In this document: positions 728-17,874 of the stretch, in pieces
Numbering within the stretch: the stretch's first letter is position 1
How the letters are laid out: every line of letters begins with the position of its first letter
Source of the DNA: an uncultured Candidatus Saccharibacteria bacterium
GTDB lineage: Bacteria; Patescibacteriota; Minisyncoccia; Phycocordibacterales; CAIZIN01
Direction: 5' to 3'
NCBI GenBank assembly: GCA_964472605.1
Contig: CAYYLG010000001.1
Coordinates: forward strand, 11,119-66,160
Length of the DNA stretch: 55,042 nucleotides
Translations under genes and position numbers: made by a program
The notes under the pieces: model-generated
Told to the model about the DNA's origin: nothing
Databases searched by the model: none
What the model saw: the letters and a program-made list of their open reading frames with translations, nothing else

Positions 728-1334
728 GGGGCCGACCGGTTTCGACGGGGGCAACAGAGATTGGAACTGCAAGCGGAGCATGTCGCATCATCTCCTAAAA
801 CTGTGTGGCAACCAATTAAACGGCGCTGACACTTCTCTCGCTGTTGCTGCCTAATTAGGCGGCTTGGGTTCTAGCCGACCTCGAAACAGAATGGCTAGTG
901 ACTGATGGAAAGTCATCGGACTGAGGGAAAGACCTCTGACGCCCTGGAAAGACTGGTGGTGGATCGGGAGAGGTCACACTCTCTGCCCTTGACGGTGGGA
1001 AAGACCACAACCTTGTTAGTGGGTTAAACTAACTAAGCTTGTAGGGGTTCTAATCAACGGGTTCTCGGACAGGGGTTCAATTGTAATGGTTGCTTTACTT
1101 CGAAAGAAGTATTGAAAAACTGGGTGAATTCAGGGAAAGCTAAGTTCTTTTAAGAATATGCCAATCCTGAGCCAAGCTATCAGTACACTGGTAGAAGGTG
1201 CAGAGACTACTGGAGAGATTAAGTCCTCTTAATAACCAGCTAGAGCGCCCAGCGTCCTAACGTAAAGACGAGGATGAAGAGATAGTCCAAGCCAAATTGA
1301 AAAATTTGGATAACTTGTCCCCTCGGCTCCACCA
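728..1334 (+). ncRNA. ssrA: tmRNA (transfer-messenger RNA), intron-interrupted
   Basis: The 5' end is GGGGCCGACCGGTTTCGACGGGGG. Acceptor 728-734 pairs with 1324-1330, including G3:U70, and CCA is encoded at 1332-1334. The tag reading frame 807-854 gives GNQLNGADTSLAVAA followed by TAA. The T stem AGGGG 1071-1075 / CCCCT 1319-1323 is split by 236 nt. Confidence 0.85.
1082..1317 (+). mobile_element. group I intron (ORF-less) in the tmRNA T-loop
   Basis: Removing it restores the 7-nt T-loop TTCAATT. The 5' exon ends in U (CAAT can pair with GTTG 1089-1092, with a U.G wobble at the splice site). The last intron nucleotide is G1317. There are two GAAA-capped hairpins (1096-1111, 1292-1309). P7-like strands are present: CAGAGACTA 1201-1209 and GATAGTCC 1281-1288. 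A CAGGGAAAG element is also present. Confidence 0.7.
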
Positions 1335-14013: not shown

Positions 14014-14143
14014 TGTGAGGCTAGAATGCGCTGTAAAGAAGGCTATAAAAGGGATAAATCAGATAGTCCCCGAATAGGAAAATGGTTAAAATTTTATTTC
14101 CTCAAAAGAACTTGTAGGAAAAAATCATTGAAGGAGAAAGAAT

Positions 14144-14861
14144 ATGAAAAAGAACAAAGATAAATCCTGGAGGTGTCTTTGACACCATTCAAATTTTGAT
14201 CCAACCCGGAGAGGGTGGAAAAGATTCTCAGTTATTTGCTGAAGATCTTTCTAGCATGTATCAAAAACATGCAAAGAGACATGGGCATGAAGCTCGAATA
14301 GTCTCTAGTACGACCAAACAAATTCAATTAGAGGTCGTTGGTAAAAATCCTTGAAGAGCATTCCGGTTTGAAGCCGGACTTCATAGAGTACAAAGAGTTC
14401 CTCCAACTGAAAAGGGTGGTAGAACTCATACTTCTATTATAACCGTAATTGTTCTTAAACAAAAAGAACAAAAGCCAATTGAAATTGATAAAAAAAATGT
14501 CGTAGTAAGTTACTACAAAGATTCCGGCGCTGGTGGCCAGCATAGAAATAAAACAATGTCTGGTGTTCGGTTACAATATTCAGGTATAACTATTGAATGT
14601 TGTGATACAAGAGATCAGAGAAAAAATAAAGAAATAGCCTTCGAGCGTTTGGAAGAAAAACTTAAGCAAAGGGAGCTTGGAATTGAAAGAGAAAAAAAAG
14701 AAAGAGAAATGTCCAAGCAAAATCCCAATTGTGGTAAGCGTGGAAATTTCTTAAGGAACTACAACTACATGAGAGATGAAGTTTCACAAGACGGTAACAA
14801 ATATAAGCTCTCTCAATTTTTGAGAGGAAATCTGGAGAAGCTTTATGGTGAAGCCGTCTAA
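14144..14861 (+). CDS. class-I peptide chain release factor, N-terminally truncated; needs a +1 frameshift at 14177-14183 and decoding/readthrough of in-frame TGA 14352-14354
   Basis: Assembled as join(14144..14179,14181..14861). Motifs: QPGEGGKDSQLFAEDL, GLHRVQRVPPTEKGGRTHTS (RF1-type PxT), SGAGGQHRNKT (GGQ), RDQRKNKE, RNYNY. AAGGAG lies upstream of the ATG. Confidence 0.75.
14169..14183 (+). promoter_or_regulatory. prfB-type programmed +1 frameshift cassette
   Basis: GGAGG-TGT-CTT-TGA-C has the same architecture as the E. coli prfB site AGGGGG-TAT-CTT-TGA-C: an internal SD, a 3-nt spacer, then CUU UGA C. Confidence 0.75.
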
Positions 14862-14936
14862 ATCTAAAAACATTGAAAACAAGTAGGGGTAGTTATACTA
14901 ACTTCCTCTACTAATTTTAAGAGGAGGTTGGTCCCA

Positions 14937-16281: not shown

Positions 16282-17874
16282 ATGATAAAAGGAAAATCTA
16301 GTTTAGATGGAACTCCAATTGAAAAACTGTCTGATTATAGTAGAAAAAAAATAATAAAAATTTGTGATGATTGTAAAATAGAACTACAAATTTCTTATTG
16401 TGATTTAATTTTATCAAGAAAAAAAAGAAAAAGTGATATTGATAGATGTCATAAATGTGCAATGAAAAATCAAAGTGGAGAAAACAATCCTTCTAAAAAA
16501 CAAAATACTAGAAAAAAAATTAGTGAAAAATTAAAAGGTAAAAGTAAAAGATTTAAAAAAGGTTTTAATCCAAGAATACATACAATCAGAATAAACACAG
16601 CAGGTTATGTACTTGTTCATGATTATAAAAATAACAAAAAAGAATTCGAGCACAAATTAATTATGGAAAAAAATATAAAAAGAAAACTAAAAGGGAAAGA
16701 ACAAATCCATCACATTGATGGTGATAAAAAAAATAATAATATAGAAAACTTACTTTTAGTTAATGATGCTTCAGAGCATATGAAAGTTCATTCTCAAATA
16801 GAAAATTTATTTTTTGAATTATATAAAAAAAATATTGTTTATTTTGATAATGAAAACAAATCGTATAAATTAAATCCTCTTATAGAATTGAGTAGGTTTG
16901 AAGAAAGTCTTGGATTTGAAAATATAGCAATAAAACAAAAAAAGCAAATATGTGTTTCAAGATTAGATGTAAATTTGAAAAGTGAAGTAATAAGGGATGT
17001 CTTTTTAGATGTTCCTATGATGGCTGCAAACATGAGTACGGTAACAAATGCTGAATTCATTATTAAGCTTTCAAAATTAGGTGCAATGGGTGTAATGCAT
17101 CGTGCATGTTCTGATGAAGAAATTTTATCTTCTATAGAAAAAATTTCAAAAGAATGTGAATGGGTTGCAGGCTCTATTGGTGTATCAAACAAAGATATTG
17201 ATTTATTTAAAAATATGATTATTAATGGTTGTAATATCATATTTATAGACATTGCACATGGTTATAGTGAAGCTGTTTTTGATATGGCTAAAAAAATAAA
17301 AAAGTATTCTCCCTTAACCAAAGTTGTTGTTGGAAATACAACAAATATAAATATGCTTTATGAATGTTATGAATTTATTGATGCGATAAAAGTTGGTATA
17401 GCTCAAGGTTTTGCTTGTGAAACAAAAAATACTGCTGGTTGTACTGAAAAACAATTTTCTGCTATTTATAAATTTAAAGAAGTTTCTAAAAAACTAGAAG
17501 TTCCAATTATTTCTGATGGAGGAATCAGAGAACCTTCGGATTTCGTTAAAGCTATTGGGGCTGGAGCGAATTCTATCATGGCGGGAAAAATATTTGCAGA
17601 ATGTCCTGAGAGTGCAGCAGAACTTGGAACAGACAAAAATAATAATCCAATAAAAATTTATGCAGGAATGGCATCACAATATATTCAAGAAGCTTGGAAA
17701 GGCGGTGTTAAAGAAGGAACTTGTACTGAAGGTGGTGTTCGGTATTTGTCACTTGGGTTGCCAATTAATAAAATGCTTGAAAAATACTCTGGTGCATTGA
17801 GATCTGGGATAACTTATGCAGGAGCAAAAGATATTAAATCTTATCAAAATAATGTTGAATTTATTAAAATATAA
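16282..17874 (+). CDS. guaC: fusion protein: N-terminal HNH endonuclease domain + GMP reductase/IMPDH-family TIM barrel
   Basis: Residues ~1-190 carry CxxC...CxxC and HHIDGDKKNNNIENLLLVNDASEHMKVH. Residues ~200-530 are collinear with GuaC from its N-terminus (LGFENIAIK, VPMMAANM, IDIAHGYS, VVGN, catalytic-Cys loop GIAQGFACETK, ISDGGIR, IMAG). Confidence 0.75.
   Translation: MIKGKSSLDGTPIEKLSDYSRKKIIKICDDCKIELQISYCDLILSRKKRKSDIDRCHKCAMKNQSGENNPSKKQNTRKKISEKLKGKSKRFKKGFNPRIHTIRINTAGYVLVHDYKNNKKEFEHKLIMEKNIKRKLKGKEQIHHIDGDKKNNNIENLLLVNDASEHMKVHSQIENLFFELYKKNIVYFDNENKSYKLNPLIELSRFEESLGFENIAIKQKKQICVSRLDVNLKSEVIRDVFLDVPMMAANMSTVTNAEFIIKLSKLGAMGVMHRACSDEEILSSIEKISKECEWVAGSIGVSNKDIDLFKNMIINGCNIIFIDIAHGYSEAVFDMAKKIKKYSPLTKVVVGNTTNINMLYECYEFIDAIKVGIAQGFACETKNTAGCTEKQFSAIYKFKEVSKKLEVPIISDGGIREPSDFVKAIGAGANSIMAGKIFAECPESAAELGTDKNNNPIKIYAGMASQYIQEAWKGGVKEGTCTEGGVRYLSLGLPINKMLEKYSGALRSGITYAGAKDIKSYQNNVEFIKI

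What the first reader, a model, noticed from the sequence alone, without database searches (positions are those of the whole stretch)
14144..14861. Truncated release-factor gene combining an RF2-type +1 frameshift site, an extra in-frame UGA and an RF1-type decoding motif
**The frameshift site**
- The gene opens with MKKNKDKSWRCL, followed by GGAGG-TGT-CTT-TGA-C.
- This is a near-exact copy of the prfB autoregulatory +1 frameshift cassette.
- Only the +1 frame continues into release-factor sequence.

**The protein**
- The product is about 238 aa.
- It lacks domain 1 and keeps the decoding and GGQ domains.
- Its decoding loop is RVQRVPPTE (PxT, RF1-like, expected to read UAA/UAG), not the SPF loop of RF2.

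**The second UGA**
- A second TGA at 14352-14354 is in frame.
- It sits at the position occupied by a conserved Tyr in E. coli RF1 and RF2 (G.G.Y..L..E.G.HR).
- The conserved GLHRVQRVP...GGQ sequence lies downstream in the same frame, so this codon must be read through or decoded.

**Interpretation**
- No other gene in the window needs TGA decoding.
- Expression therefore appears gated twice on weak UGA termination: low RF2, a UGA suppressor, or a late-stage code switch as reported for stop-codon-recoded phages.
- The alternative is a decaying pseudogene.
Basis: partly seen in the sequence, partly recalled or inferred. Interest (0 to 1): 0.85.

Follow-up and report, generated by a model that had tools for sequence, protein, structure and literature searches.

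The report
Doubly recoded phage release-factor gene
A huge bacteriophage carries a shortened RF1-type translation-termination factor gene that can be made only if the ribosome shifts frame at a prfB-like site and then reads through one in-frame UGA; both signals are conserved across a phage-specific family, so this is a regulatory design, not a broken gene.

Summary
ATG 14144 opens a 12-codon leader. It ends in GGAGG-TGT-CTT-TGA-C, and only the +1 frame continues, into an RF1-type release factor that lacks domain 1. One in-frame TGA lies at 14352-14354.

It is not a pseudogene.
- The same 800 nt occur in three other independent assemblies.
- Relatives that are 72-73% identical keep both signals although synonymous sites are saturated (dN/dS about 0.04-0.1 on both sides of the TGA).

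Across 24 related phage lineages:
- 16 have an SD-N3-[C/G]TT-T(AG|GA) cassette, with stop TAG in 10 and TGA in 6; a 17th has two tandem cassettes (TAA, then TGA).
- 15 have in-frame stops inside domain 2. These are always TGA, at 10 or more different codons, and TGG occupies one of those codons in three relatives.
- All four combinations of the two devices occur.

No other gene needs TGA decoding in about 102 kb of this phage, where TGA ends about 30% of the genes. A complete 636-kb relative has no UCA tRNA and uses the standard code.

Best reading: a gene-specific double translational gate on a phage RF1. It parallels prfB and the Mimivirus release-factor gene. The trigger and the factor's codon specificity remain untested.

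The parts
14130..14137 (+). Shine-Dalgarno sequence (GAAGGAGA) for initiation at ATG 14144
   Evidence: Read directly. It ends 6 nt before the ATG. Equivalent SD-plus-ATG leaders are present in the related loci.
14144..14182 (+). 0-frame leader ORF, MKKNKDKSWRCL followed by UGA
   Evidence: Relatives have leaders of 8-13 codons that end in ...R-[CS]-L/V-stop. In L013 the leader is fused in frame to the body (MQILNLWECLFETLYLQIIPGEGG). That fusion shows the leader is translated contiguously with the factor.
14169..14176 (+). Internal SD-like stimulator GGAGG (GGAGGTG is complementary to the 16S 3' end) plus the 3-nt spacer TGT
   Evidence: One search finds one match in the window against 0.02 expected. 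GGAGG or AGGGGG at exactly 3 nt from the shift codon is conserved in 16 lineages.
14177..14183 (+). +1 frameshift site CTT TGA C: the P-site Leu codon slips from CUU to UUU while the A site holds the slowly decoded UGA-C
   Evidence: The architecture matches the prfB motif described in PMC12421855. Frameshifting itself is inferred, not measured.
14181..14351 (+). +1-frame coding segment (aa 13-69), the N-terminal half of RF domain 2 including PGEGGKDS
   Evidence: Pfam PCRF match. Against L001 and L004, pN is 0.12-0.13 while pS is 0.66-0.74.
14352..14354 (+). Single in-frame TGA (codon 70), followed by A. It must be decoded, most likely as Trp.
   Evidence: It is conserved as TGA in L001/L002 and L004/L005. 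Elsewhere in the family the in-frame stop is always TGA, at 10 or more other codon positions. TGG sits at one of those positions in L008, L044 and L045.
14355..14861 (+). Remainder of the factor (aa 71-238): decoding loop HRVQRVPPTE (PPT at 14400-14408), GGQ (14532-14540), long helix, domain 4, and stop TAA at 14859-14861
   Evidence: Against L001 and L004, pN is 0.18-0.20 while pS is 0.70-0.79. The AlphaFold model of family member P0005 superposes on ribosome-bound RF1 with TM 0.85.

Best explanation
**What it is**
- Positions 14144-14861 hold an intact, selected gene of a huge phage; contigs of 120-349 kb carry neighbouring genes of this phage.
- It encodes a 238-aa class-I release factor of RF1 type, comprising domains 2-4 without domain 1.

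**How the protein would be made (inferred from sequence and comparison)**
1. Ribosomes start at ATG 14144 and translate 12 codons.
2. With CUU in the P site and the poorly terminated UGA-C in the A site, they shift +1. An internal SD (GGAGG) 3 nt upstream assists the shift, as in prfB.
3. 57 codons later they must decode one in-frame UGA. The inserted residue is most probably Trp. It could come from near-cognate tRNA-Trp or from a suppressor tRNA I did not find.

**Regulatory logic (inferred)**
- Ribosomes that terminate at either UGA yield only a 12-aa or a 69-aa dead-end peptide.
- Output is therefore the product of frameshift efficiency and readthrough efficiency. It rises when UGA termination, i.e. 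RF2 activity, is weak.
- The two devices are independent regulatory modules that recur throughout a phage-specific RF1 clade.
- They keep the factor scarce and couple its synthesis to the termination capacity of the infected cell.
- In most relatives the frameshift stop is UAG. That is cognate to an RF1-type factor, so those genes would be autoregulated in the prfB manner.
- In this window both gates are UGA, so the gene senses RF2 rather than itself.
- The product would then supply UAA/UAG termination; 51 of 90 selected ORFs in the window end in UAA.

**Status of each step**
- Shown: the sequence features, their conservation, purifying selection, RF1-type motifs and fold, and the restriction of in-frame TGA to this gene.
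- Inferred: that frameshifting and readthrough occur, the amino acid inserted, the factor's codon specificity, and the physiological trigger.
For: **Anatomy**
- The features and coordinates were read directly and the full cassette is unique in the window.

**RF1 type**
- NCBIfam scores RF1 at 185 bits against 131 bits for RF2.
- The best PDB sequence match is T. maritima RF1 at 140 bits, against about 92 bits for RF2.
- HRVQRVPPTE and GRTHTS match the RF1 decoding elements.
- The model of family member P0005 has pLDDT 87.5. It superposes on ribosome-bound RF1 with TM 0.85 and rmsd 2.6 A.

**Not an error and not decay**
- The sequence is identical in three other assemblies.
- Against L001 and L004, pS is 0.66-0.79 and pN is 0.12-0.20 on both sides of the TGA. 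The cassette and the TGA are nevertheless unchanged.

**The frameshift is required**
- The +1 frame has no usable start codon here or in L001.
- In L044 the +1 frame is closed by TAG up to the shift codon.
- L013 carries an in-frame fusion, CTT TTT GAA.
- The cassette is present in 16 of 24 lineages, and LR756511 appears to have two in tandem.

**Readthrough is a selected device**
- In-frame stops occur in 15 of 24 lineages and are always TGA.
- They lie at 10 or more different codons, all upstream of the PxT and GGQ motifs, and fall at variable residues.
- TGG replaces TGA at one of those sites in three relatives.
- In the 15 loci scored the +4 base is A (12) or C (3), never T or G; the three further TGAs seen (LR756504, LR756501) are each followed by A.

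**Gene-specific**
- No other gene requires TGA decoding in the window.
- None was found in about 47 kb of flanks of the same phage.
- None was found in flanks of six other lineages.
- The complete 636-kb relative LR756504 has no UCA tRNA and gains at most 0.03 coding density with TGA as sense.

**Precedents**
- prfB (PMC12421855).
- The Mimivirus/Megavirus release-factor gene, which needs a frameshift plus a readthrough (PMC3521657).
Against: - No experiment shows that either recoding event occurs.
- The factor's codon specificity is only inferred from motifs.
- An RF1-type factor cannot feed back on UGA. The benefit of making it when RF2 is weak is therefore conjecture, and it would not help the roughly 30% of this phage's genes that end in UGA.
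- The cassette stop switches between TAG and TGA in close relatives (L044 and L045). This fits poorly with a strictly RF1-specific feedback loop.
- One relative, L003, has a tRNA with anticodon UCA 2.2 kb from its release-factor gene. A dedicated suppressor may therefore matter in some lineages.
- The rest of this phage's genome was not seen: at least about 100 kb if the 207-kb contig is the whole genome, more if the 349-kb one is.
- Activity of a domain-1-less factor on host ribosomes is assumed.
Confidence: 0.68

Rival explanations
1. Code-switch gating. The phage reassigns UGA to Trp late in infection, using a suppressor tRNA-UCA encoded elsewhere in its genome. The in-frame UGA makes RF1 synthesis wait for that switch. 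The RF1 is part of a code-change module, as proposed for TGA-recoded Jade phages.
For: - The Borges et al. preprint (10.1101/2021.08.26.457843) describes RF1 with a TGA suppressor tRNA and TrpRS in two TGA-recoded phages.
- It proposes that code-change genes are expressed before recoded late genes.
- Relative L003 has a tRNA with anticodon UCA 2.2 kb from its release-factor gene.
- TGG and TGA interchange at one site, which fits UGA = Trp.
- Only about 102 kb of a genome of at least 207 kb was examined.
Against: - In about 102 kb of this phage, no other gene has an in-frame TGA and about 30% of genes end in TGA. Ten of those in the window are ATGA overlaps. No UCA tRNA was found.
- 40 kb around the L003 gene is also in the standard code.
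- The complete 636-kb relative LR756504 has an in-frame TGA in its release-factor gene. It has no UCA tRNA, no tRNA-Trp, and no 50-kb bin that improves by more than 0.03 with TGA as sense.
- An efficient suppressor would also read the UGA of the frameshift site in the 0 frame and so lower the yield.
- The Jade RF1 genes are described as standard-coded.
Confidence: 0.15
2. True double negative autoregulation. The phage factor has broadened specificity and also terminates at UGA. Both UGA signals would then be feedback sites for the factor itself, as with the omnipotent Mimivirus factor.
For: - The cassette stop flips between TAG and TGA in closely related genes, as if both were equivalent to the factor (L044 and L045).
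- Two lineages with TGA-type cassettes have a non-Pro first residue in the tripeptide: SPT in L016 and GPT in L045. From my recollection of Ito et al. 2000, Ser at that position permits G at the second base of the stop codon.
- The conserved Glu of the GGxE tip is Asp in the family.
- The Mimivirus precedent (PMC3521657).
Against: - The window protein has the canonical RF1 determinants: PPT, the Gln of VQRVP and the Thr of HTS.
- HMM and structure searches prefer RF1.
- TAG-type lineages also carry in-frame TGA.
- The correlation between tripeptide and cassette type rests on two lineages, and one TAG-type lineage (L015) has GIT.
Confidence: 0.1
3. The host reads UGA as sense (code 4 or 25, no RF2). 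The in-frame UGA would then be an ordinary codon and only the frameshift would be regulatory.
For: - Public pipelines translated a relative with code 4 (P0001).
- Some relatives come from groundwater and sediment samples where such hosts occur.
Against: - The window has 96 ORFs with no other internal TGA.
- 31 ORFs end in TGA, including 10 ATGA coupling overlaps.
- The same pattern holds in the flanks and in the relatives.
- A phage of a UGA-sense host would use TGA freely inside its genes.
Confidence: 0.03
4. Decaying pseudogene, sequencing error, or internal initiation that bypasses the frameshift.
For: - Gene callers annotate only a 101-aa C-terminal fragment.
- One family member lacks both signals (L013) and others lack one of them.
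Against: - The sequence is identical in four assemblies.
- dN/dS is about 0.04-0.1 on both sides of the TGA, with synonymous saturation.
- Both signals recur in many lineages and no other disruptions are present.
- There is no start codon in the +1 frame before TTG 14196, which has no SD. L001 has none at all.
Confidence: 0.02

Closest known systems
prfB (RF2) autoregulatory +1 programmed frameshift
   Same: - Short 0-frame leader.
- Internal SD-like element 3 nt upstream of the CUU codon.
- CUU U slippery site, with in-frame UGA followed by C.
- The release-factor body lies in the +1 frame.
- Logic: slow termination favours the shift (PMC12421855; PMC5009743).
   Different: - The encoded factor is RF1-type, not RF2, so in this window the UGA is not cognate to the product.
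- The leader is 12 codons and the site sits directly before domain 2, because domain 1 is absent. In prfB it is codon 26, inside domain 1.
- Most relatives use UAG. That stop was never seen in 8,164 prfB motifs, and no programmed frameshift was found in bacterial prfA (PMC12421855).
- Two relatives use GUU U as the slippery site.
Mimivirus R726 / Megavirus mg280 class-I release-factor gene
   Same: - A virus-encoded class-I release factor.
- Translation needs both a frameshift and a stop-codon readthrough.
- It is the only recoded gene in the genome.
- The authors interpret it as very tight buffering of factor level (PMC3521657).
   Different: - That factor is of the eukaryotic/archaeal eRF1 type and is presumably omnipotent, so both stops can feed back on it.
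- Here the factor is bacterial RF1-type, in a phage.
- Here the two devices occur independently across the family.
- The authors called the combination unique to those viruses. This family would be a second, independent case.
RF1 in the 'code change module' of TGA-recoded Jade phages; RF1/RF2 genes of huge phages
   Same: Phage-encoded RF1 has already been noted in TGA-recoded phages (10.1101/2021.08.26.457843) and in huge phages, alongside tmRNA and many tRNAs (PMC7162821). This phage also carries a tmRNA and tRNAs.
   Different: - Those RF1 genes are described as standard-coded, and neither paper's searched text mentions a frameshift or an internal stop in them.
- Here the release-factor gene is the recoded gene and the rest of the examined genome is not.
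- Three of the huge-phage genomes from PMC7162821 do carry the signals: in-frame TGA in LR756504 and LR756501, and tandem cassettes in LR756511.
Programmed or leaky UGA readthrough as Trp in bacteria (Q-beta A1 protein; UGA read as Trp in B. subtilis)
   Same: A single UGA is read at low efficiency by tRNA-Trp to give a functional longer product. This is from my own knowledge of the literature. PMC13092985 shows experimentally that tRNA-Trp(CCA) variants and overexpression raise UGA readthrough in E. coli.
   Different: - Here the UGA is internal to a conserved domain, so no function can be assigned to the short form.
- Its position moves between lineages while its presence is kept.
- PMC5009743 states that no bacterial release-factor gene with an early in-frame stop read in the same frame was known.

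Membership tests
Bacterial class-I release factor RF1 (prfA; NCBIfam NF001859 / TIGR00019) | PCRF and RF-1 domains (structural domains 2-4) with the GGQ motif | tested here: met
   Pfam PCRF 93 bits and RF-1 75 bits. GGQ is at aa 130-132. The model of family member P0005 superposes on ribosome-bound RF1 with TM 0.85.
Bacterial class-I release factor RF1 (prfA; NCBIfam NF001859 / TIGR00019) | RF1-type decoding elements: the PxT tripeptide, the Gln of (V/I)QR(V/I)P and the Thr of HTS | tested here: met
   HRVQRVPPTEKGGRTHTS aligns with HRVQRVPxTE..GRxHTS of cellular RF1s. The RF1 HMM scores 185 bits against 131 for RF2.
Bacterial class-I release factor RF1 (prfA; NCBIfam NF001859 / TIGR00019) | N-terminal domain 1 (about 105 aa) and a score above the equivalog cut-off | tested here: not met
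   The match covers profile positions 106-335 of 347. The score of 185 bits is below the 400-bit cut-off. All family members are 220-240 aa. I therefore file it as a phage-specific RF1-like subfamily, not as prfA proper.
Bacterial class-I release factor RF1 (prfA; NCBIfam NF001859 / TIGR00019) | Peptide release at UAA and UAG but not at UGA | not testable with these tools
   This needs in vitro release assays.
RF2 (prfB protein) | SPF tripeptide and best match to RF2 models | tested here: not met
   The tripeptide is PPT, not SPF. RF2 HMM and PDB matches score lower than RF1.
prfB-type programmed +1 frameshift cassette | SD-like element, 3-nt spacer, CUU U slippery codon, in-frame UGA with C at +4, and release-factor homology continuing only in the +1 frame | tested here: met
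   GGAGG-TGT-CTT-TGA-C at 14169-14183. It is conserved in 16 related lineages.
prfB-type programmed +1 frameshift cassette | The in-frame stop is cognate to the encoded factor, giving autoregulation | tested here: not met
   In the window the stop is UGA and the factor is RF1-type by motif. The criterion is met by inference in the 10 lineages with UAG. The window version works like prfB but would sense RF2, not itself.
prfB-type programmed +1 frameshift cassette | Measured frameshifting that responds to release-factor level | not testable with these tools
   This needs reporter assays.
Programmed stop-codon readthrough | An in-frame stop conserved in relatives, with downstream sequence in the same frame under purifying selection | tested here: met
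   TGA is conserved in L001/L002 and L004/L005. Downstream, pN is 0.18-0.20 against pS 0.70-0.79. The GGQ domain lies downstream.
Stop-codon-recoded phage (TGA to Trp, code 4) with a code-change module | Many genes interrupted by TGA, higher coding density with TGA as sense, and a suppressor tRNA-UCA | tested here: not met
   Not met in about 102 kb of this phage or in the complete relative LR756504. The remainder of this phage's genome was not available.
Selenocysteine insertion at UGA | A conserved SECIS hairpin just 3' of the UGA | tested here: not met
   A local hairpin is present in the window (z = -2.65). No conserved structure appears across the 15 loci scored, and the UGA position varies.
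PrfH and ArfB (other truncated RF homologues) | Match above the family cut-off; PrfH lacks the PxT/SPF motif and pairs with RtcB; ArfB is a GGQ domain plus a C-terminal tail only | tested here: not met
   PrfH scores 50.7 bits against a cut-off of 166.65. ArfB scores 36.7 bits against a cut-off of 100. The decoding domain with PxT is present. The PDB PrfH match is only 32 bits. RtcB pairing was not checked.

The most novel reading that the evidence does not exclude
- Phages have evolved their own class of domain-1-less RF1 factors.
- Their synthesis is computed by the ribosome from the cell's termination status, through two modular sensors.
- The first sensor is a +1 frameshift cassette whose stop (UAG or UGA) selects which host factor is sensed.
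- The second is a single movable UGA read as Trp.
- This would be the first RF1-type gene with programmed frameshifting, including the UAG-based autoregulatory loop that has been looked for and not found in bacteria.
- It would also be the first bacterial-type release-factor gene gated by same-frame readthrough.
- It would have arisen convergently with the Mimivirus factor.
- It might be used to time or protect phage translation when host RF2 or RF1 is depleted or attacked.
Probability: 0.4. Interest if true: 0.9.

Novelty: new variant of a known kind. Interest (0 to 1): 0.8.

Why it matters
**Why it is unexpected**
- Programmed frameshifting in release-factor genes has been regarded as a peculiarity of prfB.
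- A 2025 survey of more than 12,000 bacterial genomes found no TAG in the motif and no programmed frameshift in prfA (PMC12421855).
- A major review states that same-frame readthrough of an early stop in a bacterial release-factor gene is unknown (PMC5009743).
- This phage family shows both, in RF1-type genes, in many combinations.

**What it offers**
- A natural series of variants (UAG or UGA cassette, CUU or GUU slip codon, with or without the in-frame UGA) for testing how ribosomes sense termination capacity.
- A second, independent viral case of the frameshift-plus-readthrough design first seen in Mimivirus. That suggests a general pressure on viruses to keep their own termination factor tightly limited.

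**Practical consequences**
- These genes are systematically mis-annotated, either as 100-170-aa fragments or through a wrong choice of code 4.
- A single in-frame TGA in such a gene should not be taken as evidence for a recoded genome.

Tried and rejected
- **Pseudogene or sequencing error.** Rejected by the identical independent assemblies, dN/dS and conservation across lineages.
- **Internal initiation in the +1 frame.** There is no start codon with an SD, none at all in L001, and L044's +1 frame is closed by TAG up to the shift codon.
- **Genome-wide TGA recoding.**
  - I compared ORF density under codes 11, 4 and 15 in the window, the flanks and relatives. There was no gain.
  - Candidate TGA-split ORFs were translated. 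They proved to be antisense junk or adjacent genes in the same frame.
- **Suppressor tRNA.** ARAGORN and Rfam found none in about 102 kb of this phage. Only a divergent tRNA-like element with anticodon CCA turned up, outside the window.
- **SECIS or a readthrough-stimulating hairpin.** The window has a local hairpin, but nothing is conserved across the family.
- **Close relatives among deposited phages.** blastn found none and tblastn found matches of 36% identity or less.
- **Cellular genomes.** A GTDB scan found no family member, only weak GGQ-domain matches in Lentisphaerota MAGs.
- **Seeing the whole genome.** Walking along the contigs reached about 18 kb to the left and 29 kb to the right of the window. 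The look-up cap then ended it, so structural and lysis genes were not seen.
Full report
**1. The observation**

Every sequence claim checks out. GAAGGAGA (14130-14137) precedes ATG 14144. The 0 frame reads MKKNKDKSWRCL and stops at TGA 14180-14182. The stop lies within GGAGG(14169-14173)-TGT-CTT-TGA-C. This full motif occurs once in the 55-kb window, against 0.02 expected by chance. The bare heptamer CTTTGAC is not unusual on its own.

The +1 frame is open from GAC 14181 to TAA 14859-14861 and contains one TGA, at 14352-14354. It has no ATG, GTG or TTG before TTG 14196, and that codon lacks an SD.

The 238-aa composite product matches Pfam PCRF only over profile positions 103-194, plus the RF-1 domain. 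It scores 185 bits on the RF1 model, aligned to positions 106-335 of 347. RF2 scores 131 bits, PrfH 51 and ArfB 37. It is therefore an RF1-type factor without domain 1. Its decoding loop is HRVQRVPPTE and it carries GGQ. The TGA aligns with the Tyr of cellular RF1s.

**2. Genetic code of the surroundings**

- The window is 31% GC, almost entirely coded on the + strand, and 93% coding under code 11.
- Of the ORFs selected, 51 end in TAA, 31 in TGA and 8 in TAG.
- Ten TGA stops form ATGA stop/start overlaps.
- The release-factor gene is the only place where reading through a TGA adds more than 36 codons; it adds 168.
- The only tRNA in the window is tRNA-Met.

The window is the last 55,042 nt of a 65-kb contig. 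The same phage occurs in contigs of 120.5 and 206.9 kb, and neighbouring genes occur on contigs of up to 349 kb.

I read about 18 kb further left and 29 kb further right.
- Several ordinary tRNAs are present, but none has a UCA anticodon.
- No further TGA-interrupted gene was found.
- Annotated functions are helicase, RNA ligase, AAA ATPase, methyltransferase, NUDIX, IMPDH and homing endonucleases.
- No structural genes were seen.

**3. Not an artefact and not decay**

Positions 14101-14900 are identical in three contigs assembled from other samples.

The nearest relatives are L001/L002 (73% aa identity) and L004/L005 (72%). They carry the same GGAGG-TGT-CTT-TGA cassette after a different leader, and a TGA at the same codon.

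Between the window and these genes, synonymous sites are saturated (pS 0.66-0.79) while pN is 0.12-0.20. This holds both between the shift site and the TGA and after the TGA. That is strong purifying selection on a reading frame that runs through both signals.

The 'W' in the database protein P0001 is simply this TGA translated with code 4 by the source pipeline.

**4. The family**

A protein search found a set of short (about 220-240 aa) RF1-like proteins from metagenomes. I obtained DNA for 24 distinct lineages in total and tabulated their features.

*Frameshift cassette*
- 16 lineages have an 8-13-codon leader followed by SD-like GGAGG or AGGGGG, exactly 3 nt, CTT (GTT in two lineages), and an in-frame stop.
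- The stop is TAG in 10 lineages: L003, L008-L012, L015, L017, L034 and L044.
- It is TGA in 6 lineages: the window, L001, L004, L006, L016 and L045.
- The base after the stop is C in 13 of the 16.
- L044 and L045, two members of one sub-clade with closely similar protein sequences, differ in TAG versus TGA.
- In L044 the +1 frame is closed by a TAG until the shift codon itself.
- In L013 the two frames are fused (CTT TTT GAA) and the leader is colinear with the body.
- L007, L018, L036, LR756504 and LR756501 start directly in frame.
- LR756511 appears to have two tandem +1 sites, CTT TAA C and then CTT TGA C.

*In-frame stop*
- 15 lineages have in-frame stops inside domain 2: one in each of 14 lineages, and two in LR756501.
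- They are always TGA and never TAG or TAA.
- They occupy 10 or more different codon positions, all upstream of the PxT and GGQ motifs and mostly at variable residues.
- At the F-x-(K/R)-E site, seven sequenced loci (six of the tabulated lineages) have TGA and three (L008, L044, L045) have TGG.
- In the 15 loci scored the base after the TGA is A (12) or C (3); the three further TGAs in LR756504 and LR756501 are each followed by A.
- No RNA structure is conserved downstream, which argues against a SECIS element.

*Combinations and phylogeny*
- All four combinations of the two devices exist, so they behave as independent modules.
- A rough NJ tree places the phage proteins as one clade apart from cellular RF1s.
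- On that tree the TAG type occurs in the deepest branch and in most clades. The window's TGA type is therefore probably derived.
- No family member was found in a representative genome of any bacterial or archaeal species.

**5. Structure**

The composite window protein could not be submitted. An unrecoded member, P0005 (52% identical), gave a confident model with pLDDT 87.5. Its best structural matches are ribosome-bound RF1s, with TM 0.85 and rmsd 2.6 A over 228 columns. Matches to the closed crystal forms and to PrfH are worse.

**6. Is the UGA part of a code change?**

The preprint on recoded phages reports RF1 next to a TGA suppressor tRNA and TrpRS in two TGA-recoded phages. It describes those genes as standard-coded.

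Here the situation is the reverse: the release-factor gene is the only recoded gene.
- Relative L003 has a tRNA with anticodon UCA 2.2 kb away. However, 40 kb around it is in the standard code.
- Three complete huge-phage genomes from Al-Shayeb et al. carry short RF1-like genes with the same signals.
- I rebuilt one of them in full, LR756504 (636,363 nt). It has 38 tRNAs, none with UCA and no tRNA-Trp.
- Its code-11 coding density is 0.87-0.94 in 12 of 13 bins. It is never more than 0.03 higher with TGA as sense.

A genome-wide code switch is therefore not needed to explain an in-frame TGA in this gene family. It remains possible for the unseen part of this particular phage.

**7. Mechanism**

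*Shown*
- The anatomy, its conservation, and the selection acting on it.

*Inferred*
- Ribosomes shift +1 at CUU-UGA-C with help from the internal SD, as in prfB. They later read the single UGA, most probably as Trp.
- PMC13092985 shows that tRNA-Trp(CCA) variants and overexpression raise UGA readthrough in E. coli.
- From my own knowledge, UGA is the leakiest bacterial stop codon and is read by tRNA-Trp.
- Yield would be the product of frameshift and readthrough efficiencies. In this window it would rise when RF2 activity on UGA is low.
- In the UAG-type relatives the frameshift would be classic negative feedback for an RF1-type factor.
- The in-frame UGA would add a second, RF2-dependent or simply attenuating gate.

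*Context*
- Overproduction of RF2 is toxic to B. subtilis, and RF1 overproduction reduces fitness to a much lesser extent (PMC12421855).
- The Mimivirus factor is interpreted as being held at a low, constant level by the same pair of devices (PMC3521657).

*Not explained*
- Why an RF1-type factor should be tied to UGA.
- Why the cassette stop alternates between UAG and UGA in close relatives.
- A broadened specificity is a live minority possibility. L016 has SPT and L045 has GPT in place of PPT.

**8. Comparison with what is known**

- prfB has the same cassette, but it encodes RF2, its stop is never UAG, and no programmed frameshift is known in prfA (PMC12421855).
- Same-frame readthrough in a bacterial release-factor gene was 'unknown', and the only frameshift-plus-readthrough release-factor gene was in giant viruses (PMC5009743; PMC3521657).
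- RF1 genes in huge and recoded phages are known, but the searched text of PMC7162821 and the recoded-phage preprint mentions no frameshift or internal stop in them.
- This is therefore a new variant of a known kind of regulation, in a new class of factor and host system.

**9. Verdict**

The finding is real. The trigger and the factor's specificity need experiments.

Noticed in passing
window 735-1330: The phage encodes a tmRNA (Rfam 61.9 bits, 735-1083). Its T-loop is interrupted by a group I intron (Rfam 109 bits, 1068-1309). The 3' exon TCCCCTCGGCTCCACCA follows the intron. Relative L005 has the intron-less version (129.5 bits; tag GNEYAHAA) 3 kb upstream of its release-factor gene. ARAGORN misses the split gene.
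   Followed up: partly
L040 11651-11721 (same phage, about 20 kb beyond the right end of the window): A divergent tRNA-like element scores 32 bits on the Rfam tRNA model (gathering threshold 29). It has anticodon CCA (Trp), an A1-U72 pair, a short D loop without GG and a non-canonical T loop. It lies in a GC-rich 450-nt intergenic gap. It could be an unusual tRNA-Trp that helps read UGA; I did not test this.
   Followed up: partly
L003 7416-7490 and 7793-7864; LR756504 281045-281120: In relative L003, two tRNAs lie next to the release-factor gene. One has anticodon UCA. The other has an 8-nt anticodon loop (UAUUCUAA, which ARAGORN reports as '???'). A similar tRNA with the 4-nt anticodon 'tcta' occurs in the 636-kb phage LR756504.
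   Followed up: no
L034 5480-5554 and neighbours: A more distant phage has a TAG-type cassette and no in-frame TGA. About 3 kb upstream of its release-factor gene it carries a tRNA with anticodon UUA, which looks like an ochre suppressor. It also encodes EF-Ts, two PTH2 peptidyl-tRNA hydrolases and a YqeY-domain protein.
   Followed up: no
L052 (LR756511 413312-415138, reverse strand), around locus positions 500-600: The release-factor gene of this 595-kb phage seems to need two successive +1 shifts. The path would be MKKKVKNQVCL-(CTT TAA C)-NSAANPATTSPLDRL-(CTT TGA C)-DKANEIILEIQFGCGGEDS. The second site has no obvious SD. It is the only TAA cassette I saw.
   Followed up: partly
L053 (LR756501 357871-359724, reverse strand), locus positions 694 and 733: The release-factor gene of the 735-kb phage has two in-frame TGAs 13 codons apart, each followed by A, and no frameshift cassette. 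Its decoding loop reads HCFIRVPPTE, so the RF1-type Gln is replaced.
   Followed up: no
L044 1040-1075 and L045 8380-8415: Two related genes use GTT-T instead of CTT-T as the slippery site, with AGGGGG as the SD-like element. One has TAG and the other TGA as the cassette stop.
   Followed up: partly
window 14556-14861; L046-L048; P0001: Public gene calls for this gene are wrong in two ways. Either only the C-terminal 101 aa (the RF-1 domain) is annotated, or the contig was translated with code 4. The code-4 translation gives a spurious N-terminal extension and turns the TGA into W.
   Followed up: yes
window 16282-17874: The IMPDH-like ORF is 530 aa, against 391 aa in relative L002. The extra roughly 200 N-terminal residues look like a NUMOD/HNH homing-endonuclease module. 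This is either a fusion or an unresolved gene boundary. Several other HNH or NUMOD endonuclease genes are nearby.
   Followed up: no
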